From Deltaproteobacteria bacterium (GTDB lineage Bacteria; Myxococcota_A; UBA9160; SZUA-336): a stretch of DNA of 32,747 bases. Location of the stretch: the NCBI GenBank assembly GCA_019311115.1, contig JAFDDB010000025.1:1-32747 (forward strand). The letters run 5' to 3'. Under the pieces are notes generated by a model. That model made no database searches, was not told the DNA's origin, and saw only the letters and a list, made by a program, of their open reading frames with translations. Position 1 is the first letter of the stretch. Each line of letters begins with the position of its first letter. Made by a program: the position numbers and the translations under genes. Below, piece after piece: positions 9,631 to 32,747 of the stretch.

Positions 9631-9821
9631 CTCAGCCTCGTCCACTCGTAGCCATTTGCACCCTCTCGAAGAGAAGGATTCGGCCTTTTCGGACCCGGGC
9701 TTGAGGCGTCGCGCGTGCGCAGCTGTACCGGGGAGACGCGCGCGCGGACGGGCGGAGACACGCGCGCCAGACGAACTCGGGGCGCGCGCGGGGCGCGGCG
9801 CGCGATCAGGTGGTCAGCCGG

Positions 9822-11770: not shown

Positions 11771-11810
11771 CACGTCCTCCCCATCACGTTCTCCCGTCAC
11801 GTTCGCCCCG

Positions 11811-13028
11811 TCACGCCCGGCGGAGGGCCTCGGCCGGGCGCATCCGAATCGCGCGCACGCCGGGCCAGACGGCCGCGACCACGCCGGTCACGAGTGCTAG
11901 CGCGAGCGGCGTGAGCGCGTCCTCCCACCCGGCGTGCAGGAACACCCGCGTGCCGATGCCGTAGCTCTCGAGTGCGTCGGAGAACATGCTCAGGTCGATT
12001 CCGCGCTTGCCGAGCCAGCCGACCAGCGCAAAGCCGGTGCCGAGTCCGATGCCCGTGCCCGCGAGCGTCAGCGCCGCCGACTCGAGCGCGATCAGCATCA
12101 TCAGCCGAGCGCGCGAGAGGCCGAGCGAACGCATCACCCCGAACTCGCGCAGCCGCTCGTACACCGCCATGAGCATGGTGTTCGCGATGCCGAACGCCAT
12201 GGCGACGAAGACCGTGGCGTAGAAGATCCAGGACAGGTCTCCCATCAGGTCGAGCATCGAGGCGAGCCGCCGCGCGCGCTCGCGCCAGGTCAGCACCTCG
12301 ACGCCCGAACCGAGCGCCTCCTGCAACCTCGCCTGGACGGCGTCGACCGTCTTCTCGTCGTCGAGCACGATGGCGACCTCGGTCGCCGCATCGCCGACGC
12401 CGAACAGCCGCTGCGCATCGCGAAGGCGCAGGAATACCGCGACTCCGTCGAACTCCGACGAGGCGGTGCGGTACAGGCCACTCACGCGGAACGCGCCGAG
12501 CCCCGCGTCGCCGGGCACGTGGAGCACGAGCTTGTCGCCGATCTCCGCGCGCATCTCGCCGGCCATCTTCACGCCGATCACCACCGGAGGAAGACGCCGC
12601 GCGCCGGAGCCCGTGCGCAGGAAGCTCCCCTCGACGATCGAGGAAGGGACGACCGACACCTCCGCCTCGTCGCCCGGACGGACGCCGATCATCACCGCGA
12701 GCACGCTCTTGCGGGCGGTCTGGACGAGCCCTTCCCCGCGAAGACGCGGCGAGGCATGGACTCCGGCCTGCGACCGCGCCGTCTTCGCGATCGCGTCGTA
12801 GTCCGGCAGGTTGTACCGCACGTCGGGATTGTCCCGGTAGCCCGGCGCCTGGACCGCCATGTGTGCGAGCTGGATCTTCACGGCGTTGTCCGCCATCTGG
12901 TGCACGAGGCCCTTGCTCCAGGCCACCACGAAGAGGCAGCCGCTCAAGCCCACGCCGATGCTCAGCAACACGATCAGCGAGCGGCGCCAGCCACGCGCGA
13001 CGTTCCGCACGGCGATGCGAAGCAGCAC
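11811..13028 (-). CDS. ABC transporter permease, FtsX-like (MacB/LolC-type), copy 1
   Basis: 405 aa. N-terminal TM helix, large periplasmic domain, C-terminal FtsX 3-TM bundle (FGIANTMLMAVYERLREFGVMRSLG). Confidence 0.8.
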   Translation of the reverse strand: MLLRIAVRNVARGWRRSLIVLLSIGVGLSGCLFVVAWSKGLVHQMADNAVKIQLAHMAVQAPGYRDNPDVRYNLPDYDAIAKTARSQAGVHASPRLRGEGLVQTARKSVLAVMIGVRPGDEAEVSVVPSSIVEGSFLRTGSGARRLPPVVIGVKMAGEMRAEIGDKLVLHVPGDAGLGAFRVSGLYRTASSEFDGVAVFLRLRDAQRLFGVGDAATEVAIVLDDEKTVDAVQARLQEALGSGVEVLTWRERARRLASMLDLMGDLSWIFYATVFVAMAFGIANTMLMAVYERLREFGVMRSLGLSRARLMMLIALESAALTLAGTGIGLGTGFALVGWLGKRGIDLSMFSDALESYGIGTRVFLHAGWEDALTPLALALVTGVVAAVWPGVRAIRMRPAEALRRA

Positions 13029-13029
13029 T

Positions 13030-14268
13030 TCAGGCCTCTCGCAGCGCGTCTACCGGGCGTCCGCGCGACGCCCGGAACGCGGGCGGAAGCGCAGCCAGCA
13101 GCGCCACGCCGACCAGGACCCCCGCCATGAGCACGAGCTGGCCCGCGTGCATGCGGAAGACGAGCAGCGCCTCTACGCCGAAGAGTTCCAGCGCCTCCGT
13201 CGCGCTCTCGCCCATCTGGATCGGGTGCTGCTCGAGCCACAGCGTGAGCGGGATGCCGATCGCGAAGCCGATCACGAGGCCGATCGCCGACATGAGCAGC
13301 GCTTCGATCACGACCAGGCCGAAGATGCGCCGGGGCCGAACGCCCATCGCGCGCATCACGCCGAACTCCCGCACGCGCTCGAGCACCGACATGAGGATCG
13401 TGTTGAGCAGCCCGAAGGCGACGACGACCAGCAGGACCGACAGGGTCAGGTAGCCGCCCAGGTCGTCGAGCACGATCAGCTGGTACAGGTCCGGCAGCAG
13501 CTCGGGCCAGGCCAGCACCTCGTAGGCGTCGCGGGAGAAGACGCGGTCGAGCTCGGCGCGCACGGCTTCGACCTGGCTCGGGTCCGACGCGAAGGCCGCG
13601 ACGTGCGACAGGCCGCCCGGATACTCGACGAACCGCCGCAGGTCGTCCAGCTCGACGATGGCCGCGTACCCGTCGATCGTGTCGTCGCCGACCTCGAGCG
13701 TTCCCGCCACGCGGAACCGCTCGGCCGACTGCGACCCGTAGTAGTCCGCGGCCAGCAGGATCATGGAGTCGCCTGCGGCCACCCCCAGGTTCTCGGCGAG
13801 CCGCCTCCCGAGCACCACGTTGCGTTCTTCCGGTTCTCCGGAGAGGAGTCCCCCCTCGCGCACGAAGCGCCCGATGCGCGTCAGCGGCCCCTCGCGTGCC
13901 GGGTCCAGGCCGATGACCTGTGCGGCGCGGCCCGTGCTGTCGTCGCGGTCGGGAATGGCGAGCGCCCAGGCCTCGAGCCGCGGCGCCCAGCCGTCGATCC
14001 CCGGGATGCGGTCGAGCGCCGCCGTCTGCGCCTCGGAGAGCGTCATGCCGTAGTCGAGAGTGCGGTGGTCGCGGTAGCCCTGCGCCATGACTTCGACGTG
14101 GCCCGGGTAGAGCCGCACGATGTGCTCGACCCAGCGGTCGTGACTGCCGGCGGCGGCGGCGAGCGTGATCAGCGTCAGCACGACCGCGAAGACCGCGGCG
14201 GCCGAGGTGAGCACGGTGCGGCGCGGCTGGCGGCCCAGGTTCCGCCACGCGATCCGCAGCAGCAGCAT
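13030..14268 (-). CDS. ABC transporter permease, FtsX-like, copy 2
   Basis: I chose the ATG at 14268 (MLLLRIAWRNLGR...), which overlaps the stop of the LolA-like gene (ATGA). Same architecture as copy 1 (LLNTILMSVLERVREFGVMRAMG). The first 44 codons of the track ORF lie inside the upstream gene. Confidence 0.8.
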   Translation of the reverse strand: MLLLRIAWRNLGRQPRRTVLTSAAAVFAVVLTLITLAAAAGSHDRWVEHIVRLYPGHVEVMAQGYRDHRTLDYGMTLSEAQTAALDRIPGIDGWAPRLEAWALAIPDRDDSTGRAAQVIGLDPAREGPLTRIGRFVREGGLLSGEPEERNVVLGRRLAENLGVAAGDSMILLAADYYGSQSAERFRVAGTLEVGDDTIDGYAAIVELDDLRRFVEYPGGLSHVAAFASDPSQVEAVRAELDRVFSRDAYEVLAWPELLPDLYQLIVLDDLGGYLTLSVLLVVVAFGLLNTILMSVLERVREFGVMRAMGVRPRRIFGLVVIEALLMSAIGLVIGFAIGIPLTLWLEQHPIQMGESATEALELFGVEALLVFRMHAGQLVLMAGVLVGVALLAALPPAFRASRGRPVDALREA

Positions 14269-15059
14269 CAACGCGCGGCCTCCGACCGCTTCAGGTTCGA
14301 CTGCGTGAAGATCGAGTCCGCGAGGTCGCGGTCGAACTCGATCTCGTCCAGCGTGATCTCGGTCATGTGCCCCGGCTTGTCGATCGGCTCCATCGACCAC
14401 TGGTGCGGCACGTTGCGTCCGTCGACGCGGCGCACGTCCGAGAAGCGCATGCGGCGGATCAGCTCGAACTCGCCGGGCTTGTCCTCGTCATAGTACAGGA
14501 AGAGGAACGGGGCGTGCGCGTCGGCCGTGATCCACGCCTCGATCTTCGCCCAGACGACGGGCGCGTCCTCGTGGGGAACCAGCAGCACGCCGAGCACCTG
14601 CGTGCCCTCGATCTCGCGCGCCCCGATTACGCTCGCCTCGTAGTCGTCGACCATCGAGGAGTCGCGCGCCAGGTCGTCGTTGGTGAAGTCACTCCCCATC
14701 CAGGACTGCAGCATCATCGACGGCGGGATGCGCGTCGTGCGCTCGACCCGGGGGAGGTACATCCAGAGCGTGTTGGCCAGCCGCAGGAACCCCGTCCCCT
14801 TGTCCTTCCGCGGCGCGAGGATGCGAGTCAGGCTGCGGTCGTTCCGGCCGTCGTCCCACGACCGGAAGCTCAAGGTCCGCTCCCAGCGCGGCGTGGTGAT
14901 GTGCATCGTCGCCTTCATCTGCGCCGTGTCGCCGCGCATCGAGTCCTCGGCCAGCTTGACGATCGCCGCGGCGTCGAGCCCCTCGTAGGAGGGGTCGGCA
15001 GCATGGGCCGCGGATGGAAGCAGGACCAGCAGGAGCGCGAACGCCAGGCTAATCATCAT
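14268..15059 (-). CDS. LolA-like outer-membrane lipoprotein-sorting family protein (periplasmic)
   Basis: Start MMISLAFALLLVLLPSAAHA (signal peptide) at 15059, with GGGAG upstream. Resembles the LolA_like/DUF-type proteins that accompany MacB-type ABC transporters. The track ORF carries a 29-codon Arg-rich extension. Confidence 0.7.
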   Translation of the reverse strand: MMISLAFALLLVLLPSAAHAADPSYEGLDAAAIVKLAEDSMRGDTAQMKATMHITTPRWERTLSFRSWDDGRNDRSLTRILAPRKDKGTGFLRLANTLWMYLPRVERTTRIPPSMMLQSWMGSDFTNDDLARDSSMVDDYEASVIGAREIEGTQVLGVLLVPHEDAPVVWAKIEAWITADAHAPFLFLYYDEDKPGEFELIRRMRFSDVRRVDGRNVPHQWSMEPIDKPGHMTEITLDEIEFDRDLADSIFTQSNLKRSEAAR

Positions 15060-21501: not shown

Positions 21502-21524
21502 CGCGGCGCGTCTCAGCCGCCGCG
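21502..21524. terminator. GC hairpin cgcggcg-N9-cgccgcg between convergent genes (weak, no U-tract)
   Basis: A 7-bp stem with a 9-nt loop spans the hydratase stop and the adenylyltransferase stop. It may serve as a bidirectional attenuator. Confidence 0.2.
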
Positions 21525-21989
21525 CAGCCGCCGCGCGAGGTCGCTGCTGGAGTGCGTCTTCTCGTCGCCGCAGAAGGCGATCCGCCCTCCGTAGCGCTCG
21601 ACGATGGAGCGCTCGGGCACGCTGCCCACATCGCGGTCCATTCCCTTGATCTGGACGTCCGGCCGCAGGGCCTCGAGCAGCGGACCGGCCGTCGGCTCGG
21701 GAAAGCTGGTCACGTAGTCGATGCCAGCGATCGCCGCGACCACCTCCATGCGCTCGGCGAGCGGCACCAGGGGACGCCCGTCGCCCTTGCTCTCGCGCAC
21801 GCTCTCGTCGGTGTTGAGCGCGACCACGAGCACGTCGGCTTCTGTGCGGGCGTCGGCCAGCAGCCTCACGTGCCCCACGTGGATCAGGTCGAAGCAGCCG
21901 TTGGCCACGGCGACGGTGCGACGGTCCGACCGCTCATCCTCGAGCCTCGGACCCAGGTCGTGGTAGTCGAGAACGATGCGAGCACTCAC
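21513..21989 (-). CDS. D-glycero-beta-D-manno-heptose-1-phosphate adenylyltransferase (HldE domain II / RfaE-II, stand-alone)
   Basis: I chose the GTG at 21989 (GTGA overlap with the heptosyltransferase stop). VAVANGCFDLIHVGHVRLLADA ... ALNTDESVRESKGDGRPLVPLAERMEVVAAIAGIDYVTSF aligns along its length with E. coli HldE C-terminal domain, and the (T/H)xGH motif is present. Confidence 0.85.
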   Translation of the reverse strand: MSARIVLDYHDLGPRLEDERSDRRTVAVANGCFDLIHVGHVRLLADARTEADVLVVALNTDESVRESKGDGRPLVPLAERMEVVAAIAGIDYVTSFPEPTAGPLLEALRPDVQIKGMDRDVGSVPERSIVERYGGRIAFCGDEKTHSSSDLARRLRGG

Positions 21990-23053
21990 GATAGAAGCTC
22001 CTCTCCAGCCCGGACCACGCGCTCGGGGGAGAGACGCGTCATGCAGCGATGGTCGATCGGGCAGACCTTCAGGTGACAGGGACTGCAGTCGACGTCCTCT
22101 CGCAGAACGCGCTGCCGCTCGAGCAGGTGCGCGGTGTGCCGGGGATCCGTCGGACCCATCACCACCACGACCGGCGTGCCGCACGCAACCGCGATGTGGC
22201 GCGGTCCCGTGTCGTTGGTGAGCAGCAGCCGGGCGTCGTCGATCAACGCCGCCAGCGCCGCGAGACCCGTGACCGGATCCACCAGTGCGACGGGCTTCTC
22301 CTGCATCCGCTCGGCGATCGCCGCCACGATGGGCTCCTCTCCTGGTCCGGGCGCCAACACCGTGCGCAATCCGAGTTCGCGGGCGAGGCGGTCGCAGGCC
22401 TCGGCAAAGTGCTCGGCGGGCCAGAGCTTGCTCGCGCCGAAGTTGGCGCCTGGAGTCACCACCACGTACCCGGCCGCGTCCCGCATGCCGGCCGCCTCGA
22501 GGCGCGCGCGCACGGCGCTCCGCGTAGACTCGTCGATCGCCACGTCGAGTTCCTCGCCCGCGTCCGCGCAGCCGAGTTCGCGCGTGAGGCGCAGGTAGCG
22601 CTCGATCATCGAGACCGGAACCCGCTTGCCGTCGACGCTCGGAGGCTCGAGGCTCCGGGTCAGCAGCGCCCGGCGCAGCGGATCGCGCGCGTAGCCGACG
22701 CGGACGGGGATGCGCGCCAGGAACGGAGCCGCGGCCGCTCGCGCAGAGTCGGGCAGCAGGACCGCCCAGTCGAAGCGCTCCCTTCGCAGGCGGGCGGCGC
22801 GCGAGAGCACGCCGCGCCCGTCGTCTTCGAGGAACGCGTCCACGGTCGGGAGGCCGTCTACCAGCTCGCGTATGAACGCGCGCGCCTCGAACACGATCTC
22901 GGCCTGAGGATGCGCCGTCTTCAGCGCGCGCAGCGCCGGCGTCGCCATCACCACGTCCCCCACCCAGGTGGGCGCGCGGACCAGGATCCGAGCCGGCGCG
23001 GCCTGCGCGGCCGGCGCGGACGGCTCAGAGGAAGTAGTCGCCCCGCTCCTCAC
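21986..23053 (-). CDS. ADP-heptose:LPS heptosyltransferase (glycosyltransferase family 9, WaaF/WaaC-like)
   Basis: 355 aa. ILVRAPTWVGDVVMATPALRAL ... LLTNDTGPRHIAVACGTPVVVVMGPTDP are GT9 hallmarks. The GTG start at 23053 overlaps the radical-SAM gene end by 29 nt. Confidence 0.8.
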   Translation of the reverse strand: MRSGATTSSEPSAPAAQAAPARILVRAPTWVGDVVMATPALRALKTAHPQAEIVFEARAFIRELVDGLPTVDAFLEDDGRGVLSRAARLRRERFDWAVLLPDSARAAAAPFLARIPVRVGYARDPLRRALLTRSLEPPSVDGKRVPVSMIERYLRLTRELGCADAGEELDVAIDESTRSAVRARLEAAGMRDAAGYVVVTPGANFGASKLWPAEHFAEACDRLARELGLRTVLAPGPGEEPIVAAIAERMQEKPVALVDPVTGLAALAALIDDARLLLTNDTGPRHIAVACGTPVVVVMGPTDPRHTAHLLERQRVLREDVDCSPCHLKVCPIDHRCMTRLSPERVVRAGEELLS

Positions 23054-24248
23054 CCGGCTCGATCTCCGCGTCTCCCCGAGGGTCCTCGATCATCTTCTCG
23101 AGCCACCAGTTGACGCCGTTGTAGAGGCAGGTGACCTGGGCGCACTCGTTGCTGGCGTCGAAGGTGTCGAGGATGCGCGCCAGGTCGCCGCCGGTCGACG
23201 CCGCCTGGCTCTCGTCGGCCCAGGCGCGTGGACTGCCGATCTTGGCCTTCTCGACTCCCCGGTGCGCCGGGCAGTTGTACAGCCCCGTCGGTGTCAGCAC
23301 CTGGCGAAGCGCCTGCATGTGGCAGACGCGCGGCTGCTTGGTGAAGTCGCGCCAGTTTCCCTGCTCGAGCAGGCGCAGGTTGGTGCTCTCGTAGACCTCG
23401 AAGCCGTCCGTCTCCAGCTCCTTGGCGCGGTCGACGCCGGCACGGATGCGCGCGACGACCTCCGCGGTCTGGCTCGCGGTCTTGTCGGGGTCCATCACCT
23501 CGGCGCCCGAGTCCTGCCGTTCGAGTACCGGCTTGTACGCGATGTAGTCGAACTCGAACCTGCGCGCGCGCTCCGCGGCCATCACGATCTCATCGATGTT
23601 CTCGTGGAGTTGCTCGCCTTCGCGCGAAGCGCCGCCCCACACGATGATGTACGAGAAGCCGACGCGGACCTCGGGGTTCGCCGCCTTGATCTTCGGCACC
23701 CACTCGCAGACGAAGTCGAGGTCGCACTTCTTGTTGACGGGCTTGTGCATGGCCAGGAACAGCTCGTTGCTGCCCGAGTCGAGCGACAGGCGGATCCAGT
23801 CGCGCGAGTCCATGTGGCGGGCGGCCTCGATCAGCCGGTCGCCGCGGCTGCCGTTCGAGACGATCGAGACCTGGAGCTTCAGCGACTTCAGGAACTCGAT
23901 GAAGCCTACGAAGCCCGGGAACAGGGTGGGCTCGCCGCCGCCGATCACGATGACCGACTTGAGACCCCGCTGGCTCATCAGCTCGATCGACGAGCGGAGG
24001 TCCTCTTCGCGGTGCTTGTCCGCGGTGTTCAGGATGTCCCAGTCGATGCAGTGCGTGCAGCGGTAGTTGCACGCCGTCGTCAGGTCGAGGTTGATCGAGA
24101 TCGGCGCGATGTCGGGCGCCGTCGGCTCGTCCTCGCCCGCGGCGCGGGCGCGCGCGACGGCGCGCCGCCACGTGACGTACTCCTGGACCAGGGGCGACAC
24201 GGACGGCTGGCGCAGCTTGCCCGTGAAGTCGTGGATTGCGTGCGTCAA
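23025..24248 (-). CDS. radical SAM enzyme (CxxxCxxC; subfamily not assigned)
   Basis: 407 aa. CNYRCTHC cluster-binding motif, SAM-binding VIVIGGGEPTLFP, and four additional C-terminal Cys (VCHMQ, YNCPAH, CAQVTC). TTG start overlaps the oxidoreductase stop (TTGA). Confidence 0.8.
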   Translation of the reverse strand: MTHAIHDFTGKLRQPSVSPLVQEYVTWRRAVARARAAGEDEPTAPDIAPISINLDLTTACNYRCTHCIDWDILNTADKHREEDLRSSIELMSQRGLKSVIVIGGGEPTLFPGFVGFIEFLKSLKLQVSIVSNGSRGDRLIEAARHMDSRDWIRLSLDSGSNELFLAMHKPVNKKCDLDFVCEWVPKIKAANPEVRVGFSYIIVWGGASREGEQLHENIDEIVMAAERARRFEFDYIAYKPVLERQDSGAEVMDPDKTASQTAEVVARIRAGVDRAKELETDGFEVYESTNLRLLEQGNWRDFTKQPRVCHMQALRQVLTPTGLYNCPAHRGVEKAKIGSPRAWADESQAASTGGDLARILDTFDASNECAQVTCLYNGVNWWLEKMIEDPRGDAEIEPGEERGDYFL

Positions 24249-25189
24249 ACAGCCTCTCCTCGGTAGGCGGCGACCAGGCTCTCGAGCATCTGCATGCGCT
24301 GTGCGATCTGCCAGGACTCGGGGTCCGGCACGGCCGCTTCGAGTGCCCTCACAAAGCGCTCCAGCAGGGTTCGCAATGGATCCGAAAGCGCGACGGACCG
24401 GTCTTCGGCCGCGAAGAGCATAGAATAGTCCGACTTTCGCACCAACCGCTCCGCGCTCTTCCCGTTGATGGAGAGAGACGCCCTGCGCGGGACGCTTTCG
24501 CCTCGCTCCAGGCGGACCGAGACCGGCGCGGCCACGCTCCCGGCGCGGTAGACGAAGCGCACGACCACCGCCTCTGGCTCAGTCCCGGTCGCGAATCCGG
24601 GGTCTTCCAGCCTCGCGTCGCGGTCGGGGGCGAGCGCCTGCAGGAGGCTCAGGGGGTGGGAGAGGCTGTCGACGAGCATCTGCTCGCCATGGCTCTCGGG
24701 CGAAAGTCGCATCTCGAACCGCTCCAGCGGAGCCGAGACCGTGCCCGGGTGGAGCGACTCGAAGGCCGCCAGCGTGCAGGGCCACTGGCAGTTCTCGACC
24801 AGCACCCGTCCGCGGTCGGCAAAGCTCCGGACCAGGTCCGCCGCGCGCTCGGCCGACCCGACTCCGCTCCAGATCAGCGGCTTCTCGCACAGCACGTGCA
24901 GCCCGCAGTCGAGCGCGCGGCGCAGGTGCGCCTCGTGCGTCTCGACGGGGGACAGGATCGCCAGCGCGTCGAGCGACTCGGCCGCGAAGAGCGCGTCGGG
25001 GTCGGCGTACGCGCGCACGTCGATCCCCTGGTCCCGAAGCTCGGCGCGCGCCTGCTCGGCGGTGTCAGCGCTCGTGCCGAGCACACAGGTCACGTCGGCG
25101 CCGAGTGCGGCGAGGTCGCGCGCCACGAACGGGCCGAGGCCCTGGCGCACGCGCCGCGCGCCGACCAGCCCGATGCGCGGGCCGCTCAC
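24245..25189 (-). CDS. Gfo/Idh/MocA-family NAD(P)-dependent oxidoreductase
   Basis: I chose the GTG at 25189 (overlaps the NUDIX stop, GTGA). N-terminal Rossmann RIGLVGARRVRQGLGPF, the family's EKP motif in LHVLCEKPL, and a C-terminal alpha/beta domain. The upstream 212 codons of the track ORF are Arg-rich and lie inside the NUDIX gene. Confidence 0.7.
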   Translation of the reverse strand: MSGPRIGLVGARRVRQGLGPFVARDLAALGADVTCVLGTSADTAEQARAELRDQGIDVRAYADPDALFAAESLDALAILSPVETHEAHLRRALDCGLHVLCEKPLIWSGVGSAERAADLVRSFADRGRVLVENCQWPCTLAAFESLHPGTVSAPLERFEMRLSPESHGEQMLVDSLSHPLSLLQALAPDRDARLEDPGFATGTEPEAVVVRFVYRAGSVAAPVSVRLERGESVPRRASLSINGKSAERLVRKSDYSMLFAAEDRSVALSDPLRTLLERFVRALEAAVPDPESWQIAQRMQMLESLVAAYRGEAV

Positions 25190-25965
25190 GCGCCGCGGCC
25201 GGCGCGGCCTACGGGACCGGCGACGCCCAGGGAGCGGTAGCGGCGCCGCCACTCCTCGGGAAGCTCGTCGACGAACGCGCGAAGCTGCGGCAGGTAGCCC
25301 AGGTGGTCGGCCAGCCGCAGCAGCGCGAGCTCGGTCTTCATGTCGGGGATCTCGCCGCGCCGGCATGCCTCGATCGCCTCGCCGAGCTCGCGGAGGACCG
25401 CACCGCCAGCCTCCTCCATCACGCTGCCGTCGCCCGTCGGCGCCTCGCGCTCGTCGAGCTTCACCGCACCCGCGCAGAAGTAGACCTTCTCGTCGCTGGT
25501 GCCGGGACTCGCGAAGGTCTCGCCCCCGATCGGCACGAACGCGCCCGCCTCGGCGCTGATGCCGACCTCCTCGCGCGCCTCGAGCGCCGCGCGCCGGGCG
25601 AGACCCGCGTCGCCGGGGCCGTCCCCGTCCTCGATCAGTCCCGCGACGACCTCGAGGATGCTGTCGTACTCGCGCGGGTCCGGGTGCTCGAAGCGTCTCT
25701 GCCTGCGCAGCCAGATCGGCGGGCGCGTGTTCTCGCGCAGTAGCACGTGGACGCGGCGCTCCGCGTCGACCTCGTACAGGACGGCCACGACCGCGTCGCT
25801 GCCCGGGCGCGAGACGACGTCGCACGGGTACACGTCGGAGGTCGTACCGTCGCTGTAGTGGTTGCGCAGGCGCAGCCGCGCGAGCTTCAAGAAGCCCTCG
25901 TCACAGCGGCTGGCGGACGTCCGGTCCTCGACGACCTCGATGGTGCGGATTTCCATGCGTTCCAT
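25186..25965 (-). CDS. NUDIX hydrolase (nucleoside-diphosphate-sugar pyrophosphatase-like)
   Basis: NUDIX box GLIEDGDGPGDAGLARRAALEAREEVG matches Gx5Ex7REuxEExGu. I chose the ATG at 25965 (MERMEIRTIEV); 25956 is an alternative. Confidence 0.75.
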   Translation of the reverse strand: MERMEIRTIEVVEDRTSASRCDEGFLKLARLRLRNHYSDGTTSDVYPCDVVSRPGSDAVVAVLYEVDAERRVHVLLRENTRPPIWLRRQRRFEHPDPREYDSILEVVAGLIEDGDGPGDAGLARRAALEAREEVGISAEAGAFVPIGGETFASPGTSDEKVYFCAGAVKLDEREAPTGDGSVMEEAGGAVLRELGEAIEACRRGEIPDMKTELALLRLADHLGYLPQLRAFVDELPEEWRRRYRSLGVAGPVGRAGRGA

Positions 25966-26033
25966 CCGTCGGCAGCTTAGGCCAGACCGCCTCCCCATCC
26001 CACGAGCGCGGCGGCCTGCGGTAGCATCCGCGC

Positions 26034-27112: not shown

Positions 27113-28486
27113 CTAGCTCCGCTCGAGCAGCTCCGTCATGCCGGCCTGGATGCCGCGGGCTAGCACGTCGATGTCGGGCGCGCTCTCGTAGTCGCCCGTG
27201 ATGCCGAAGTTGAGCTGGCCGGCGTACGAGAAGATCGCCACGCCGATCCGCACCGAGCCGGCGAGCGGCACGTACGGACGCGCAGTCAGCATGCGCCGAC
27301 CGGCCGCGTAGAGCGGCGTCTGCGGCCCCGGCACATTCGTCGTGACGGTCTGCACCGTGTGCTGCTCGAGCCTGGCGAAGAGCCGCGCACCGAGCGCGAG
27401 CAGCATCGGGGGAGCGAAGCCCGACAGCGACGTCAGCGTCTCGGCGGCGACCGCCTGCTTGCTCTCCTTCAGGTGGTCCATCTGGCCGCGGATCGACTCG
27501 AGCCGTTCGATCGGATCGGCGAGGCCCACCGGAAGCTCGGCAAACATGGCCGACACGCGGTTGTTGTACGCACCCTGCTCGTCGGCGCGCCGCACCGAGA
27601 CGGGCACGAGCGAGCGCACGACCTGTCCGTCCACCGCTTCACCGCGTCCGAGCAGCAGGTCGCGGAAGCCTCGCGTGATGATCGAGAGCACGACGTCGTT
27701 CACCGTTCCGCCGTGGGCGGTGCGGACCTTCTTGATCTCGGGGATCGTGGTCTCGGCCCAGGTCCAGCGCCGGTGCGGGCCGATCGGACCGTTGAGCCCC
27801 GTCTCGACATTGGTGTGGAGGAAGCTGCCGAAGCTCTCCATTCCCTTGGCGAACTCGCGCAGCTCACCGGCCAGCCGCCGGGGTCCGCGGAGCGCCGAGC
27901 GGATTCCACGCCACTGCTCGCGCGGGCTGATCGCCCGCTCGGTCAGCGCTGCGCGCACCAGCTGGGAGTCGCTCGGCTCGGGCGCGGGCGTCCACGGCTC
28001 CTCGGGCTCCCGCTCCGGGTCGGGGCTCTGGTCCATGACGACGGTGAGCAGGTCGGTTCCCGACACCCCGTCGACCATGCAGTGGTGGTTCTTCGAGAGG
28101 ATCGCCCAGCGGTCCTCCTCGAGTCCCTCGACGATCCAGAGCTCCCAGAGCGGCTTCGAGCGGTCGAGCTGCTGCGACATGACGCGTCCGACCAGGTTGC
28201 GAAGCTGCGTGTCGCCACCCGGCGCGGGCAGTGCCGTCTGGCGGATGTGGTAGCGGAGGTTGAAGTGCGGGTCGTCCGTCCAGACCGGGCGCCCGAGCTC
28301 CATGGGAACGAAGCGCACCTTCTGGCGGTAGCGCGGCACGAGGCGCAGCTTCGACGAGACCATCGCGACGATGTCGTCGTACGCGGGCGCCGGCCCCTCG
28401 AAGATCGCCACCGAGGCGATGTGCATGTGGTTGACGTCGTTCTCGACGTGCAGGAACGAAGCGTCCTGGGGACTCATCCGGTCCAT
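27113..28486 (-). CDS. wax ester synthase / acyl-CoA:diacylglycerol acyltransferase (WS/DGAT)
   Basis: Catalytic HHCMVDG motif and the family N-terminus MDRMSPQDASFLHVE. ATG at 28486 with GGGAG 8 nt upstream; about 457 aa. Confidence 0.85.
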   Translation of the reverse strand: MDRMSPQDASFLHVENDVNHMHIASVAIFEGPAPAYDDIVAMVSSKLRLVPRYRQKVRFVPMELGRPVWTDDPHFNLRYHIRQTALPAPGGDTQLRNLVGRVMSQQLDRSKPLWELWIVEGLEEDRWAILSKNHHCMVDGVSGTDLLTVVMDQSPDPEREPEEPWTPAPEPSDSQLVRAALTERAISPREQWRGIRSALRGPRRLAGELREFAKGMESFGSFLHTNVETGLNGPIGPHRRWTWAETTIPEIKKVRTAHGGTVNDVVLSIITRGFRDLLLGRGEAVDGQVVRSLVPVSVRRADEQGAYNNRVSAMFAELPVGLADPIERLESIRGQMDHLKESKQAVAAETLTSLSGFAPPMLLALGARLFARLEQHTVQTVTTNVPGPQTPLYAAGRRMLTARPYVPLAGSVRIGVAIFSYAGQLNFGITGDYESAPDIDVLARGIQAGMTELLERS

Positions 28487-28575
28487 CGAAACCGCTCCCG
28501 ATCTGTCCCCCACTCCCCGGAAGCGATGCTAGCAGCTGGGACTCTCTGCGGCGACGAGTGCGCGATGAACGGCGA

Positions 28576-30090
28576 TCAGGGCAGCGATCCCCAGAAGCGG
28601 CGCGCCGTCTCGAAGGCGCCCTCGCGCACCTTCGGGCGGCGGGTCAGGAACATCGTCGCCTGGGTTCCGCCGTCGAACGCGGGCCACGAAGGCAGCGATG
28701 GGTGCGAGGGGTCGCCGGAGCGCGCGAACATGACCCAGGCATCCTGCATCGCCTCGGACAGGCGGCGCGCACCGCCGAGCGTACCGAGCGTGGGCCGCAG
28801 CAGCGGGTCGAGCAGCGTCCCGAACACGAAGGGAATCTCCAGGCCGTGGCACGCGCCCACGCGGCCGGGCAGCAGTGGGGGTCTCCACCCGAAGAGGTAC
28901 GAGTAGGTGCGCGCGCTGTGCTCTACCTGCGCCTCCGCCAGCCGCAACGCCGGGTAGCGGAAGATGCGGTCCGTCATGAACGCGGCCCAGCGGTCGCGCG
29001 GCGCCTTGCTGCGGCCGGCGCTGCGGTACGCGTCGAAGGCCAGGCCGGCGAGCGGCGCGCCGCGCTCGTCCACGCCCGGCAGCGCGCGCTCGAAGCGCCT
29101 CTTGAGCCCGTCCTCGTCCAGGCGCCGCACGTCCGCGAACCCGAACAGGTTCCACTCGTCGCGGTTCGTGCCCACCAGCAGCGGGATGTCGCGCGACAGC
29201 CCCTTGGCGATCGCCTCGAGGGGCGGCCCGGGCAGCAGGTCGCCGTCGACACTCGGCTGCCAGGGCATGCCGCCGCTGCGCAGCCCGAGGCTGATCGTGG
29301 TCTCGCGCTGCGCGTCGAGAAGCTTTTCCATGTCGACCTTCTCGAGCGCGCCGCGGTCGGACCCGCGGATGCCGAGGCGCTCCAGGAAGCTCTCGGCCAC
29401 CTGCGCCGCGCGCTCGGGCGACGACACGTTGTGGGCGGCGCCGCTCTGCGCGATGGCGCGGTGGAAGAGCCCCCTCGCCGCCGGCGTTCCGAGCAGGGTG
29501 CCCACGCTCATGCCACCCGCCGACTCGCCAAAGATCGTGACGTTGTCGGGGTCGCCGCCGAAGGCGTCGATGTTGTCGCGCACCCACTCGAGCGCCGCGA
29601 TCTGGTCGCGGACGCCCACGTTCGCGGTCCAGCCGCGGTCGATCGAGGTCAGGTCGAGGTAGCCGAGCGCTCCGAGCCGGTAGTTGATCGTGACGACGAC
29701 CACGTCGCCGCGTTGCGACAGGCGCCGGCCCGAGTACAAGCGCGTCGAGCCCTGTCCCATCACGAACGCGCCCCCGTGGATCCAGACCAGGACCGGCCGG
29801 TGCCGGCCATCAACGGCCGGCGTCCAGACGTCGAGGGCCAGGCAGTCGGGGCCGTGCTCGCCGCCGAGCACGCCGATCATCCCGCGGACCGGCAGCTGGA
29901 CCGGCGGGCGCTGCGGGCAGGCGAGCGAAGAGTGGGCGGCCTCGCGGACGCCCTGCCAGGGCGCTACGGGCTCGGGCGGGGCGAAGCGGCGTCCCCCCTC
30001 GAGCGAGCGGGCGTAGCGGATGCCCTTGAAGACGAGTCCCCGGCGGCCGCGGACACCGCGCAGCTTTCCGGCGCGCGTGCTGACGATCAT
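28576..30090 (-). CDS. carboxylesterase type B (para-nitrobenzyl esterase-like)
   Basis: GESAGG nucleophile elbow, HGGAF oxyanion region and a ~500-aa length. I chose the ATG at 30090 ([10 protein letters not shown]), which overlaps the upstream stop (ATGA). No signal peptide. Confidence 0.85.
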   Translation of the reverse strand: MIVSTRAGKLRGVRGRRGLVFKGIRYARSLEGGRRFAPPEPVAPWQGVREAAHSSLACPQRPPVQLPVRGMIGVLGGEHGPDCLALDVWTPAVDGRHRPVLVWIHGGAFVMGQGSTRLYSGRRLSQRGDVVVVTINYRLGALGYLDLTSIDRGWTANVGVRDQIAALEWVRDNIDAFGGDPDNVTIFGESAGGMSVGTLLGTPAARGLFHRAIAQSGAAHNVSSPERAAQVAESFLERLGIRGSDRGALEKVDMEKLLDAQRETTISLGLRSGGMPWQPSVDGDLLPGPPLEAIAKGLSRDIPLLVGTNRDEWNLFGFADVRRLDEDGLKRRFERALPGVDERGAPLAGLAFDAYRSAGRSKAPRDRWAAFMTDRIFRYPALRLAEAQVEHSARTYSYLFGWRPPLLPGRVGACHGLEIPFVFGTLLDPLLRPTLGTLGGARRLSEAMQDAWVMFARSGDPSHPSLPSWPAFDGGTQATMFLTRRPKVREGAFETARRFWGSLP

Positions 30091-31067
30091 CGCACGAGGT
30101 TGCCGAGTGGCTGGCCTCTCTGCCACGCCTCGAGGTTTCGCAGGAAGTACGGGGCCTCGCGCGCGCGCATTCCGGTCGAAGCGGCGGAGTTGTGAGGGGT
30201 GACGATCACGCGGTCGAGGCGCCAGAGGGGCGAGTCCTCGGGCAGCGGCTCGCTGGCGAAGACGTCGAGATAGGCGCCACCGATGCGTCCTGCGGCGAGG
30301 CCCTCGATCAGGGCCGGCTCGTCGATCACCTCGCCGCGGGCCACGTTCAGCACGCAGGCGCCCGGTGGCAGCAGGGCGAGAGCGTCGCGGCTCACGATTC
30401 CGCGGGTCTCGTCGGAGAGCGGGCAGGCGATGGCCAGGAAGTCGGCCCGCGGCAGGACCTGCGCCAACTCCCCGGGCGTGACCAGTTCGTCCACGGGGTC
30501 GGCGGGGCCCCCCGGACTGCGCCGGACACCGATCGTGTGCAGCCCGAGCGCGCGGCCCAGCCGCGCGATCTCGCTACCGATCGCGCCCAGCCCCAGCACG
30601 ACCAGCGTCTGCTCCTCGAGCGCGCGCGGCGCGGACGGCTGCGGCTCCCACGAGCGCCGCGCCTGCGCGTCGAGCCAGTGCGGAAAGCCCCGCGCCAGCA
30701 TCAGCAGACCCGTCACCAGCGTCTGCGCGATCGGCCGCGCGTTCGCTCCGGCGGAGTTCGTGAGCACGACGCCGCGGTCGAGCAGCGAACGGAAGACCGG
30801 GTGGTCGAGCCCCACGTTGAACGTGTGCATCCAGCGCAGACCCTCGGCGCGGTACACGGCCGAGAAGAACGAGCGCGAGTGGTCGGGAAAGACGTCGCCC
30901 GAGAAGTGCGCGGCCTCGACGCGCGCCGCGTCGGCGTCGCGCAGCCGCTCGTCGGGGTCCTTCGGAAGTGCGATCACCTCGATGGGCTCGCCCGTCTCGC
31001 GGGCGATGCGCGCGACGTCCGCGCCGTGGCGGTCGAGGAACTGCGTCGAGGCGAGGAGCCGCGTCAA
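30087..31067 (-). CDS. D-isomer-specific 2-hydroxyacid dehydrogenase family protein
   Basis: NAD-binding [19 protein letters not shown], catalytic-region ARG...D and TPHNSA. I chose the TTG at 31067 ([11 protein letters not shown]), which overlaps the PQQ-dehydrogenase stop (TTGA). M1 of the track ORF would overlap the upstream gene by 70 nt. Confidence 0.75.
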
Positions 31068-32747
31068 AGAGTGGTCTCCGCCTGGTGCCGCACGTAGGCC
31101 TGGATCTCGTCCACCTGCGCTTCGCTCAGCCACTGCGAGAAGCTCGGCATGCCCTTCCCGGCGAAGATCCCCTTGAGCACGATGTCCTTGAACGCGCCCT
31201 GGACCTCGGGGCTGGACTTGCGCAGGTCGGCGAGCACACCGCCGCCGACGGCGCTTCCACCGTGACAGCGCGCGCAGTACGCATGGAAGAGGCGCTGGGC
31301 GTCGTTCAGTCCTCCCGTCTGGGTGAGCAACTCCTCGATCTCTTCCGCCGACGGGAACGGCGGCGCGAGTGCGAACGTGAGCACGCGACCGTCCGTCTGG
31401 ACACCGGCCGCCGCGGCCGCGTCACCCGCCGCCAGCGCGAAGGCGCCACCCCAGCCCGCGACGACCGTCACGTACTGCACGCCGTCGATCTCGTAGGTGA
31501 TCGGCGCGGCGATGACGCCCGTGCCCGCGTGGGCTTCCCACAGCTTCTCGCCGTCGTTCGCGCGGTAGGCGACGAAGCGGCCGTCGGCCGTGCCCTGGAA
31601 GACCAGGTTCCCCGCCGTCGCGACGGTTCCGCCGTTCCAGGGCAGCCCGTACTGGTGCCGCCACACTTCCTTCTGGGCCACCGGGTCCCAGGCCAGCAGG
31701 TGACCGGAGACGGCCTCGCGCGTGGAGAGTGCGAAGACGTTCATGTCGGTGCCGGTGTTGAACTCGCCGGGACGGTGCACGAAGTCGTCGTCCAGGCGGT
31801 AGGCGCCCTGGATCTCCTGCGCCGGGATGTACACGAGGCCCGTCTCGGGGCTGTACGACATGGGCTGCCAGTTGTGGCCGCCGAACGCGGTCGGCCGCAC
31901 CAGTGCGAGCGCGTCCTTGTAGTCCTGGCCCGGGACCTCCTGCGGGCGGCCGGTCTCGGGGTCGACGTGCGAGGCCCAGGTCACGGTCACGTATTTCTCG
32001 GCCGAGATGAACTCGCCGGTCTCGCGGTCGAGCACGTAGAAGAAGCCGTTCTTCGGCGCCTGCATGATGACGCGCCGCGGCTGCCCGTCGATCTCCAGCT
32101 CGGCCAGCACCATGTGCTGCGTCGCCGTGAAGTCCCAGTTGTCGCCTGGCGTGGTCTGGTAGTGCCAGACCAGCTCGCCGGTGTCGGGGTCGAGCGCCAG
32201 GATCGAGGACAGGTACAGGTTGTCGCCGCCCCCCGGACTGCGGATGTGCCGGGTCCACGGCGACCCGTTCCCCGTGCCGACGTAGAGCAGGTCGAGCTCG
32301 GGGTCGTAGGCCATCGAGTCCCAGGCCGTCCCGCCGCCGCCGATCTTCCACCACTCGCCGCCCTTCCAGGTCTCGGCCGCGGCCGCCAGCGCCGGCGACT
32401 CGAAGGGCTTCGACGGATCGCCCGGCACCGTGTACGTGCGCCAGACCAGCTCGCCGTCGTCGGCATCGTAGGCCGAGACGTAGCCGCGTACGCCGAACTC
32501 GGCTCCGCCGTTTCCGATGATCACGCGTCCCTTCACCACGCGCGGCGCGCCGGTGATCGAGTACGACTGCGTCTGGTCGACCGTGACCTTCTGCCAGACC
32601 AGCTTGCCGGTCTCCGCGTCGAGCGCCGCCAGCCGCCCGTCGAACACTCCGACGTAGACGCGCCCGCGGTAGACCGCGACTCCGCGGTTCACCACGTCGC
32701 AGCAGGCCTTCTTGGCGTACTCGCGGGGGACGTTCGGGTCCCACTTC
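31064..32747 (-). CDS. PQQ-dependent alcohol dehydrogenase, quinohemoprotein (type II) with C-terminal cytochrome c domain; 5'-truncated by the window edge
   Basis: Eight-bladed PQQ propeller W-motifs (e.g. [17 protein letters not shown]), vicinal Cys (AKKACCD) near the edge, and a C-terminal CARCHG (CxxCH) haem site. The reading frame is open through base 32746 beyond the GTG at 32695. The alt-frame ORF 31422..32744 is spurious. Confidence 0.85.

What the first reader, a model, noticed from the sequence alone, without database searches (positions are those of the whole stretch)
21513..25965. Five tightly coupled genes (NUDIX, Gfo/Idh/MocA oxidoreductase, radical SAM, GT9 heptosyltransferase, stand-alone heptose-1-P adenylyltransferase): a candidate novel modified-heptose or nucleotide-sugar pathway
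The five genes overlap at their junctions, implying co-translation as one unit.
- NUDIX/oxidoreductase: GTGA overlap.
- Oxidoreductase/radical SAM: TTGA overlap.
- Radical SAM/heptosyltransferase: 29-nt overlap.
- Heptosyltransferase/adenylyltransferase: GTGA overlap.

A radical-SAM enzyme paired with an NAD-dependent sugar-type oxidoreductase and a nucleotide-sugar pyrophosphatase (NUDIX) is the kind of toolkit used for unusual sugar tailoring (C-methylation, deoxygenation, epimerisation or radical dehydrogenation, as with BtrN/DesII-type enzymes). Here that toolkit is wired to ADP-heptose activation (HldE domain II without the kinase domain) and a GT9 transferase. The radical-SAM protein (CNYRCTHC, GGGEP, four extra C-terminal Cys) does not match a subfamily I can name. 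The kinase, isomerase and phosphatase of the canonical ADP-heptose route are absent from the window. This suggests a non-canonical sugar-1-phosphate is being adenylylated, modified and transferred.
Basis: partly seen in the sequence, partly recalled or inferred. Interest (0 to 1): 0.7.

Follow-up and report, generated by a model that had tools for sequence, protein, structure and literature searches.

The report
Radical-SAM ADP-heptose tailoring operon
Five overlapping genes form a conserved, uncharacterised operon of Myxococcota and Planctomycetota that most likely uses a radical-SAM enzyme and a partner reductase to alter the cell-envelope sugar ADP-heptose before a glycosyltransferase installs it, a chemistry not reported for this sugar in the literature I could search.

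Summary
Five minus-strand genes (NUDIX-like, Gfo/Idh/MocA, radical SAM, GT9, stand-alone HldC-like adenylyltransferase) occupy 21513-25965 with the stated 4-, 4-, 29- and 4-nt overlaps. Unrelated housekeeping genes flank them.

The linkage is conserved. Relatives of the radical-SAM protein occur in 483 species-level genomes. In 80 loci examined, Gfo sits directly upstream in 62/66 and GT9 directly downstream in 52/69. All five genes are present in 25/55.

The radical-SAM protein reaches no curated family. Its predicted fold is SPASM/twitch-type, closest to SkfB, BlsE and DesII. Four C-terminal cysteines are invariant.

Divergent relatives tie the family to ADP-heptose:
- one is fused to an HldD-like ADP-heptose 6-epimerase, in a cluster that also carries GmhA-HldC, HldA, GmhB and GT9;
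- another follows bifunctional HldE.

The partner enzyme varies between Gfo, SDR and aminotransferase, which suggests a keto-sugar intermediate.

Its inference that a non-canonical sugar-1-phosphate is adenylylated is not. The exact chemistry (deoxygenation or epimerisation), the NUDIX role and the acceptor remain inferred. I rate it a new variant of a known kind, interest about 0.6.

The parts
25186..25965 (-). NUDIX-like protein, a divergent NDP/ADP-sugar pyrophosphatase relative (256-259 aa). It is the first gene of the operon. The probable start is ATG 25956, or alternatively 25965.
   Evidence: Pfam NUDIX scores 18.5 bits, below the gathering score. TIGR00052 YffH/AdpP gives 1.8e-6. A family profile hits only NudK and ADP-ribose pyrophosphatases. 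E-x2-EE and SPGxSDE are invariant. The AF2 model was poor (pLDDT 54).
24245..25189 (-). Gfo/Idh/MocA-family NAD(P)-dependent oxidoreductase (314 aa) with the EKP motif. It has a GTGA overlap with the NUDIX gene.
   Evidence: PF01408 scores 53.9 bits. PDB hits are sugar and inositol dehydrogenases or ketoreductases, over the N-terminal domain only. It lies directly upstream of the rSAM gene in 62/66 loci. It is fused to the rSAM in P0122, P0130, P0139 and P0157.
23025..24248 (-). Radical-SAM enzyme (407 aa). It has CX3CX2C at C60/C64/C67, a GGGEP motif, and a C-terminal domain with four invariant Cys (C309, C326, C369, C374). It has a TTGA overlap with the Gfo gene.
21986..23053 (-). GT9 glycosyltransferase of the heptosyltransferase II (WaaF/RfaF) type (355 aa). 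It overlaps the rSAM stop by 29 nt.
   Evidence: PF01075 scores 126.6 bits. TIGR02195 scores 187.6 bits, above its cut-off of 134.6. It lies directly downstream of the rSAM gene in 52/69 loci. The same 29-nt overlap occurs in L002.
21513..21989 (-). Stand-alone HldC-like sugar-1-phosphate adenylyltransferase (158 aa) with HxGH and KTHSSS motifs. It has a GTGA overlap with the GT9 gene and is the last gene of the operon.
   Evidence: TIGR02199 rfaE_dom_II scores 145.5 bits against a cut-off of 181.5. The best PDB match is 5x9q, deposited as 'putative cytidylyltransferase' (from memory: B. pseudomallei HldC), at 8e-26. It is present within 2 kb downstream in 36/67 loci.
25966..26033 (.). Divergent intergenic region between the operon and a plus-strand beta-lactamase-fold gene. 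This is the presumed promoter region.
   Evidence: Gene layout. No sigma-70 consensus was found, so a promoter here is inferred only.

Best explanation
This is a self-contained operon that makes, tailors and transfers a modified heptose.

Proposed order of steps:
1. The HldC-like enzyme adenylylates heptose-1-phosphate to ADP-heptose. The upstream steps (GmhA, kinase, GmhB) are encoded elsewhere in the genome.
2. The radical-SAM enzyme cleaves SAM. The 5'-deoxyadenosyl radical abstracts a hydrogen from the heptose moiety. With help from a Cys4-ligated auxiliary Fe-S cluster in a twitch-like C-terminal domain, the sugar is converted to a keto (or deoxy-keto) intermediate.
3. The translationally coupled Gfo/Idh/MocA enzyme reduces that carbonyl with NAD(P)H. 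The net result is a deoxygenated or epimerised ADP-heptose.
4. The WaaF-like GT9 enzyme transfers the modified heptose to an envelope glycoconjugate, most likely the LPS inner core.
5. The NUDIX-like ADP-sugar pyrophosphatase controls or edits the ADP-sugar pool.

Shown: the gene content, the overlaps, conservation of the linkage, the fold class, the invariant cysteines, and the fusions and adjacencies to ADP-heptose enzymes.

Inferred: the substrate, the carbon attacked, the keto intermediate, the direction of the Gfo reaction, the NUDIX role and the acceptor.
For: Operon structure:
- The junction overlaps are as described.
- The flanking genes are unrelated housekeeping genes.

Conservation:
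- 483 species-level genomes encode a relative.
- Gfo is directly upstream in 62/66 loci, NUDIX is present in 47/66, GT9 is directly downstream in 52/69 and HldC is present in 36/67. All five occur in 25/55 loci across two phyla.

Link to ADP-heptose:
- P0126 (48% identical rSAM, seen on two independent contigs) carries an N-terminal domain that scores 264.2 bits to TIGR02197 ADP-glyceromanno-heptose 6-epimerase (cut-off 274.6).
- P0126 lies with a GmhA-HldC fusion, HldA kinase, GmhB and GT9.
- P0129 (44% identical) sits in the order GT9-MT-HldE-Gfo-rSAM.
- L057 (64% identical) has HldE-Gfo-rSAM, followed further on by GmhB and GT9.

Carbonyl intermediate: the neighbouring or fused partner varies, and every version is a carbonyl-handling enzyme.
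- Gfo, either separate or fused in P0122, P0130, P0139 and P0157.
- A classical SDR.
- An HldD-type SDR.
- A class-III aminotransferase.

Fold and clusters:
- Four C-terminal Cys are invariant in 36 relatives.

Other genes:
- GT9 exceeds the curated WaaF cut-off.
- The NUDIX-like protein matches only NDP-sugar and ADP-ribose pyrophosphatases.
Against: - There is no biochemical evidence. The substrate is inferred from linkage only.
- HldC scores below the equivalog cut-off (145.5 against 181.5), so its sugar specificity is unproven.
- GmhA, kinase, GmhB and HldD are not in the window, and I could not check whole genomes.
- Some family members lie in contexts without heptose genes. L085 is a lipid/methyltransferase cluster and L093 has an SDR, a methyltransferase and a GT2. 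The family may therefore accept other sugars.
- An operon that carries both an ADP-sugar-forming and a putative ADP-sugar-hydrolysing enzyme is not fully explained by 'pool control'. The NUDIX-like protein is more conserved (median 62% identity) than Gfo (45%), which hints at a more specific role.
- Planctomycetota loci with only NUDIX-Gfo-rSAM show that the trio can be separated from GT9 and HldC.
Confidence: 0.55

Rival explanations
1. Hydrolyse, modify, reactivate. The NUDIX enzyme cleaves housekeeping ADP-heptose (or another NDP-sugar) to a sugar-1-phosphate. The rSAM and Gfo enzymes tailor the sugar phosphate. The dedicated stand-alone HldC-like enzyme then re-adenylylates the modified sugar-1-phosphate for GT9.
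For: - NUDIX and stand-alone HldC co-occur in loci (30/12/3/10, Fisher p = 0.003, not corrected for phylogeny).
- Loci with bifunctional HldE next to Gfo-rSAM (L057, L087-89) lack NUDIX.
- The variant GT4-Gfo-rSAM-GT9 lacks both NUDIX and HldC.
- HldC is below the equivalog cut-off.
- NUDIX is highly conserved.
Against: - The HldD-rSAM fusion points to the ADP-linked sugar as the working substrate, because HldD acts on ADP-heptose.
- The scheme spends extra ATP.
- Twelve loci have NUDIX without a nearby HldC, and NUDIX-Gfo-rSAM trios exist alone.
- The statistics are not phylogenetically independent.
Confidence: 0.2
2. Radical route to C6 epimerisation. The rSAM oxidises C6 of ADP-D-glycero-D-manno-heptose, and Gfo reduces it from the other face. 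Together they replace the usual SDR epimerase HldD and produce ordinary ADP-L,D-heptose. The operon would then be a plain LPS inner-core operon with an unusual epimerase.
For: - No HldD lies within 6-8 kb of the cassette in any close locus.
- A fully Cys-ligated auxiliary cluster is typical of rSAM dehydrogenases such as BtrN. This is established knowledge; the BtrN auxiliary cluster is described in PMC13598754.
- GT9 is WaaF-like.
Against: - In P0126 an HldD-like domain is fused to the rSAM, so the two activities coexist rather than substitute for each other.
- Spending SAM plus NAD(P)H on a reaction that a single SDR performs without net cofactor use is uneconomical.
- The aminotransferase-partnered relatives imply products other than an epimer.
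Confidence: 0.1
3. Coincidental or looser linkage. NUDIX, Gfo and rSAM act on something other than heptose, such as another nucleotide sugar, an inositol-type cyclitol, a nucleotide (viperin-like), or a peptide (SkfB-like). They would merely share an envelope-biogenesis operon with waaF and hldC.
For: - The best sequence matches of the rSAM N-terminal half are viperins and pVip.
- Gfo's best equivalog-type hits are inositol dehydrogenases, far below cut-off.
- NUDIX-Gfo-rSAM occurs without GT9 or HldC in several Planctomycetota.
- L085 and L093 lack heptose genes.
Against: - Viperin and pVip matches cover only profile positions 1-139 of 257 and sit far below cut-off. Viperin has no Cys4 C-terminal domain.
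- The window locus is flanked by unrelated housekeeping genes rather than defence genes, and I noted no precursor-peptide gene beside the rSAM in the gene tables I read (not systematically searched).
- The independent HldD fusion and the HldE adjacency in relatives at 44-64% identity are hard to explain by chance.
- Overlapping stop and start codons link all five genes.
Confidence: 0.15

Closest known systems
DesII (radical-SAM TDP-4-amino-4,6-dideoxy-D-glucose deaminase/dehydrogenase, desosamine pathway)
   Different: Sequence identity is only 14%. DesII works on a TDP-hexose in a macrolide pathway, and its partner is an aminotransferase rather than a Gfo reductase. From memory, DesII has no Cys4 auxiliary-cluster domain.
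AprD4/AprD3 (radical-SAM 1,2-diol dehydratase plus NADPH reductase, apramycin C3' deoxygenation)
   Same: It uses the same two-enzyme logic: a radical-SAM step gives a keto-deoxy sugar and a nicotinamide-dependent reductase finishes the deoxygenation. AprD4 is described as a diol dehydratase in PMC13598754.
BtrN and other twitch/SPASM radical-SAM dehydrogenases (anSME, SpeY)
   Different: The protein here is much longer (407 aa) and has a 50-residue N-terminal extension. No family cut-off is reached. The substrate class is different.
BlsE (cytosylglucuronate decarboxylase, blasticidin S)
   Different: TIGR04466 is not among the 25 NCBIfam hits listed for the window protein (39 in all). BlsE performs a decarboxylation, and there is no heptose context.
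Canonical ADP-L-glycero-beta-D-manno-heptose pathway and inner-core transfer (GmhA, HldE or HldA+HldC, GmhB, HldD, WaaC/WaaF)
   Same: GT9 passes the WaaF model cut-off. HldC-like is a close relative of HldE domain II. Relatives of the cassette sit next to HldE, GmhA, HldA, GmhB and an HldD domain.
   Different: The canonical pathway has no radical-SAM, Gfo/Idh/MocA or NUDIX component. The window lacks GmhA, kinase, GmhB and HldD.
Nucleotide-sugar NUDIX hydrolases inside glycan gene clusters (Gmm/WcaH, NudK, ADP-sugar pyrophosphatase AspP/NudF)
   Same: This is a NUDIX enzyme of the NDP-sugar and ADP-ribose pyrophosphatase clade encoded with nucleotide-sugar genes. The only PDB relatives are NudK and ADP-ribose pyrophosphatases.
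   Different: It is very divergent: below the Pfam gathering score, with a 5-residue insertion in the Nudix box and a C-terminal helical extension of about 60 residues. Its substrate is unknown.
Viperin / prokaryotic viperins (pVip)
   Same: These are the best sequence matches for the N-terminal SAM-binding half (NCBIfam 66.6 bits; PADLOC pVip 64.7 bits; PDB E about 1e-10).
   Different: The match covers only about half of the viperin profile and sits far below the cut-off of 180. The C-terminal domain with four invariant Cys has no counterpart in viperin. There is no defence context.

Membership tests
Radical SAM superfamily | CX3CX2C cluster motif, a GGE-type SAM-binding motif, and a partial TIM-barrel core | tested here: met
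SPASM/twitch subgroup of radical SAM enzymes | A C-terminal Cys-rich domain that binds one or more auxiliary Fe-S clusters | tested here: inconclusive
Viperin / pVip | A full-length match to the viperin model above its curated cut-off | tested here: not met
   NF038283 scores 66.6 bits against a cut-off of 180 and covers residues 50-196 only. PADLOC pVip covers profile positions 1-139 of 257.
DesII / BlsE / BtrN equivalogs | Sequence membership in the specific enzyme family | tested here: not met
LPS heptosyltransferase II (WaaF/RfaF, GT9) | A match to TIGR02195 above its trusted cut-off, plus the GT9 domain | tested here: met
   TIGR02195 scores 187.6 bits, above 134.6, and is full-length (1-338 of 339). 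PF01075 scores 126.6 bits. Donor and acceptor specificity cannot be tested with these tools.
D-glycero-beta-D-manno-heptose 1-phosphate adenylyltransferase (HldC / HldE domain II) | A match to TIGR02199 above its cut-off, plus the HxGH nucleotidyltransferase motif | tested here: inconclusive
   TIGR02199 scores 145.5 bits, below 181.5, although the match is full-length (5-142 of 144). HVGH is present. The best PDB match is 5x9q, deposited as 'putative cytidylyltransferase' (from memory: B. pseudomallei HldC), at 8e-26. The next is ethanolamine-phosphate cytidylyltransferase at 2e-19.
NUDIX hydrolases (NDP-sugar / ADP-ribose pyrophosphatase clade) | The Nudix box GX5EX7REUXEEXGU and a Pfam PF00293 match | tested here: inconclusive
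   PF00293 scores 18.5 bits, below 21.1. E-x2-EE-x-G is invariant, but the loop before it is 5 residues longer and the R is replaced. A profile hits only NudK and ADPRases at E 3e-5. The AF2 model was too poor to test the fold.
Gfo/Idh/MocA oxidoreductases | An N-terminal Rossmann domain (PF01408), the EKP motif, and the family's C-terminal alpha/beta domain | tested here: met
   PF01408 scores 53.9 bits, above 24. 'CEKP' is present. The C-terminal domain gives no Pfam hit, so it is divergent. No equivalog is reached.
Canonical complete ADP-heptose pathway locus | GmhA, a heptose-7-P kinase, GmhB and HldD are all present | tested here: not met
   None of them is in the window (tblastn with L083 and L087 proteins). 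They are present beside relatives of the cassette (L083, L057, L087). Whole-genome presence cannot be tested with these tools.

The most novel reading that the evidence does not exclude
A previously undescribed radical-SAM enzyme family, widespread in Myxococcota and Planctomycetota (483 species-level genomes), performs the first known radical chemistry on ADP-heptose. With a swappable carbonyl-handling partner (Gfo, SDR or aminotransferase) it would generate deoxy-, epi- or amino-heptoses. These would be installed in LPS or other glycans, which implies unknown heptose derivatives in the envelopes of two major phyla. The dedicated NUDIX/HldC pair would re-route the nucleotide handle.
Probability: 0.4. 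Interest if true: 0.75.

Novelty: new variant of a known kind. Interest (0 to 1): 0.6.

Why it matters
- ADP-heptose is a core building block of Gram-negative LPS. From general knowledge, it is also a bacterial signal sensed by the mammalian ALPK1-TIFA pathway.
- The tailoring enzymes I know of for it are SDR epimerases and, in antibiotic pathways, oxidases, aminotransferases and VOC epimerases. A radical-SAM route would add a new reaction type to heptose biochemistry.
- It would give a function to a conserved orphan radical-SAM family that no curated model describes.
- It predicts unknown sugars in the envelopes of Myxococcota and Planctomycetota, whose LPS cores are poorly characterised.
- The cassette is compact, and one cultured carrier exists (Saltatorellus ferox Poly30), so the hypothesis can be tested directly.

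Tried and rejected
1. Viperin/pVip anti-phage reading. Rejected because the matches are half-length and far below cut-off, and there is no defence context.
3. Structure of the NUDIX-like protein. The second gave pLDDT 54, so no fold search was made.
4. Ham1(RdgB)-rSAM fusion P0127 as support for a nucleotide-hydrolase link. It is seen only on one 3-kb contig and RdgB is a housekeeping gene, so I did not rely on it.
5. Contexts of divergent members P0148, P0154, P0132 and P0135. The contigs were too short to be informative.
6. Literature. Seven full-text searches combined radical SAM with heptose, ADP-heptose, heptosyltransferase, Nudix or nucleotide-sugar terms, searched for heptose in Planctomycetes LPS, or sought mechanistic background on BtrN/DesII/AprD4. 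None found a description of this cassette. The library is partial, so absence is not proof.
7. Promoter and terminator consensus scan. Nothing was found in this 70% GC sequence.
8. Whole-genome check for GmhA, HldA, GmhB and HldD in carriers.

Full report
**Observation**

The region 21513-25965 carries five minus-strand genes.

| Gene | Coordinates | Length | Main evidence |
|---|---|---|---|
| NUDIX-like | 25186-25956/25965 | 256-259 aa | PF00293 18.5 bits (below 21.1) |
| Gfo/Idh/MocA oxidoreductase | 24245-25189 | 314 aa | PF01408 53.9 bits |
| Radical SAM | 23025-24248 | 407 aa | PF04055 68.4 bits; CNYRCTHC, GGGEP |
| GT9 glycosyltransferase | 21986-23053 | 355 aa | TIGR02195 heptosyltransferase II 187.6 bits (cut-off 134.6) |
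| HldC-like adenylyltransferase | 21513-21989 | 158 aa | TIGR02199 145.5 bits (cut-off 181.5) |

The mechanical ORFs for the oxidoreductase and the adenylyltransferase run further upstream. The short starts are the ones used in gene calls of homologous loci. L002 shows the same 4-, 29- and 4-nt overlaps.

The operon is bounded by a convergent enoyl-CoA hydratase gene and a divergent beta-lactamase-fold gene. The rest of the window is unrelated housekeeping: RNase PH, an amidase, malic enzyme, a LolCDE-like ABC system, IleRS, WS/DGAT, a carboxylesterase and a PQQ dehydrogenase.

The one soft point is the NUDIX call. It is below the Pfam gathering score. However, a family profile hits only NudK and ADP-ribose pyrophosphatases. 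The E-x2-EE glutamates and the SPGxSDE loop are invariant in homologues.

**Conservation**

The radical-SAM protein belongs to a tightly conserved family.
- The 120 best database hits are at least 67% identical and come mostly from Myxococcota MAGs.
- A scan of one genome per species found 483 genomes encoding a relative. These are Myxococcota and Planctomycetota, including the isolate Saltatorellus ferox Poly30, plus a few MAGs labelled otherwise.

In the 80 loci retrieved, counting only loci with enough flanking DNA:

| Neighbour | Loci |
|---|---|
| Gfo gene directly upstream | 62 of 66 |
| NUDIX-like gene present | 47 of 66 |
| GT9 gene directly downstream | 52 of 69 |
| HldC-like gene present | 36 of 67 |
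| All five in order | 25 of 55 |

Variants exist:
- GT4-Gfo-rSAM-GT9, without NUDIX or HldC.
- NUDIX-Gfo-rSAM alone, in some Planctomycetota.
- rSAM-GT9-HldC, without Gfo.

**What the radical-SAM enzyme is**

- No NCBIfam model reaches its cut-off. The best is prokaryotic viperin at 66.6 bits against 180, and it covers only the N-terminal SAM-binding half. The PDB sequence search and PADLOC give the same picture.
- Four C-terminal cysteines (C309, C326, C369, C374) and the CX3CX2C motif are invariant in 36 relatives down to about 29% identity. This is what an auxiliary Fe-S cluster would require.
- More distant relatives carry a recognisable SPASM domain.

**Link to ADP-heptose**

A search of 1.84 billion representatives found 97 clusters at E below 1e-30. 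Several are fusions.
- Four have an N-terminal Gfo/Idh/MocA domain: P0122, P0130, P0139 and P0157.
- One, P0126, has an N-terminal domain scoring 264.2 bits, full length, to TIGR02197 ADP-glyceromanno-heptose 6-epimerase (cut-off 274.6). It was found on two independent contigs.
- P0126 lies in a cluster with a GmhA-HldC fusion, an HldA-type kinase (321 bits against 345), GmhB and GT9. The same cluster has a DesI/PseC-like aminotransferase, an aldo-keto reductase, an F420-type oxidoreductase and two more radical-SAM genes, one of them BlsE-like.
- A marine relative (44% identical) has the order GT9-methyltransferase-HldE-Gfo-rSAM.
- Within the close family, L057 has full-length HldE directly upstream of Gfo-rSAM, with a GmhB-like gene and GT9 nearby.

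These independent fusions and adjacencies make ADP-heptose the most economical substrate assignment.

**Mechanistic inference**

The enzyme next to or fused with the radical-SAM protein changes between lineages. In every case it handles a carbonyl or hydroxyl group:
- Gfo/Idh/MocA;
- a classical SDR (L093);
- an HldD-type SDR (P0126);
- a class-III aminotransferase (L090).

The simplest reading is that the radical-SAM step produces a keto sugar. Two routes to it are possible:
- direct two-electron oxidation, as in BtrN, which also has an auxiliary cluster (PMC13598754);
- radical 1,2-elimination, as in the diol dehydratase AprD4 (same paper) or in DesII.

The partner then reduces or transaminates the keto group. 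With the Gfo partner in this window, the net result would be an epimerised or a deoxygenated ADP-heptose, which the WaaF-like GT9 then transfers. I cannot tell which carbon is attacked, nor choose between deoxygenation and epimerisation. These steps are inferred, not shown.

**The NUDIX and HldC pair**

An operon that encodes both an ADP-sugar-forming enzyme and a likely ADP-sugar pyrophosphatase needs an explanation.

One precedent from established knowledge is NUDIX enzymes in nucleotide-sugar clusters (Gmm/WcaH, NudK, AspP). This suggests pool control or editing.

Three observations argue for something more specific:
- The NUDIX-like protein is more conserved than Gfo (median 62% against 45% identity).
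- It co-occurs with the stand-alone HldC (30/12/3/10, Fisher p = 0.003, not corrected for phylogeny).
- It is missing where bifunctional HldE sits beside Gfo-rSAM (L057, L087-89).

A hydrolyse-modify-reactivate scheme on heptose-1-phosphate therefore remains a live rival.

**Comparison with known systems**

- The cassette works like the known two-enzyme sugar-tailoring pairs (radical-SAM enzyme plus reductase or aminotransferase: AprD4/AprD3, and DesII with DesI/DesV). Here that logic is attached to the ADP-heptose/GT9 machinery.
- The radical-SAM protein is not a member of the viperin, DesII, BlsE or BtrN families. The membership tests failed or were inconclusive.
- GT9 passes the WaaF model. 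HldC-like falls just short of its equivalog. The NUDIX-like protein is a divergent outlier of the NDP-sugar pyrophosphatase clade.
- Seven full-text literature searches found no description of a radical-SAM enzyme acting on ADP-heptose or of this cassette. One of them returned no paper at all containing both 'radical S-adenosyl' and 'ADP-heptose'. The library is incomplete, so prior description cannot be excluded.

**Verdict**

I rate it a new variant of a known kind, interest about 0.6, and confidence 0.55 in the stated mechanism at the level of 'radical-SAM plus reductase modification of (ADP-)heptose followed by GT9 transfer'.

Noticed in passing
window 11078-14400 (-): A LolCDE-like module: two FtsX/MacB_PCD permease genes (11811-13028 and 13030-14400) followed by an ABC ATPase gene (11078-11800). 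Three consecutive ORFs just downstream on the same strand (7995-8903, 8956-9645, 9822-11081) have no Pfam hit.
   Followed up: no
window 27113-32695 (-): A run of lipid and alcohol metabolism genes: WS/DGAT wax-ester synthase (27113-28513), a type-B carboxylesterase (28576-30126), a D-2-hydroxyacid dehydrogenase (30087-31133), and a PQQ-dependent dehydrogenase with a C-terminal cytochrome c domain (31064-32695).
   Followed up: no
L083 1-14000 (ENA forest-soil contig): A large heptose-modification cluster. It contains the HldD-rSAM fusion, a BlsE-like rSAM (TIGR04466, 181.8 bits against a cut-off of 400), a further SPASM rSAM, a DesI/PseC-like aminotransferase, an F420-type LLM oxidoreductase, an aldo-keto reductase, GT9, a GmhA-HldC fusion, HldA and GmhB. 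It looks like a pathway to a heavily modified heptose, possibly a natural product.
   Followed up: partly
L086 624-2762 (protein P0127): A 712-aa protein with an N-terminal Ham1/RdgB NTP pyrophosphatase domain (199 bits) fused to a member of this rSAM family. It is seen on one 3-kb contig in two samples. It could echo the NUDIX association or be a gene-calling artefact.
   Followed up: partly
L090 2904-12983: A relative of the rSAM (38% identical) sits between a class-III aminotransferase and GT9, inside what looks like an O-antigen-type cluster. That cluster has a Wzt ABC transporter with a Wzt_C domain, a polysaccharide pyruvyl transferase, a B12-binding rSAM, NeuB and another Gfo/Idh/MocA gene.
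   Followed up: no
L085 100-17500: The Gfo-rSAM fusion P0122 lies next to a fatty-acid or aryl-polyene-like set of genes (two KS, ACP, two KR, FabA-like, FA hydroxylase). Nearby are an Asp/Arg hydroxylase, methyltransferases and a glycosyltransferase, with no heptose genes. The family may also serve glycolipid pathways.
   Followed up: no
window 25186-25956 (-), residues about 106-133: The Nudix box of the NUDIX-like protein has a 5-residue insertion between the G-x5-(E/D) element and the helix. The canonical Arg before E-x2-EE is replaced by Leu. All three glutamates are invariant in homologues. The protein also has a conserved C-terminal helical extension of about 60 residues.
   Followed up: partly
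L001 10947-15565: In one Myxococcota relative the cassette is followed, on the opposite strand, by a B12-binding radical-SAM gene with DUF4070. An Lgt gene and a PNP_UDP_1 nucleosidase gene lie further on (the nucleosidase on the cassette's own strand). A nucleosidase near rSAM genes could salvage 5'-deoxyadenosine. This is not seen in the window.
   Followed up: no
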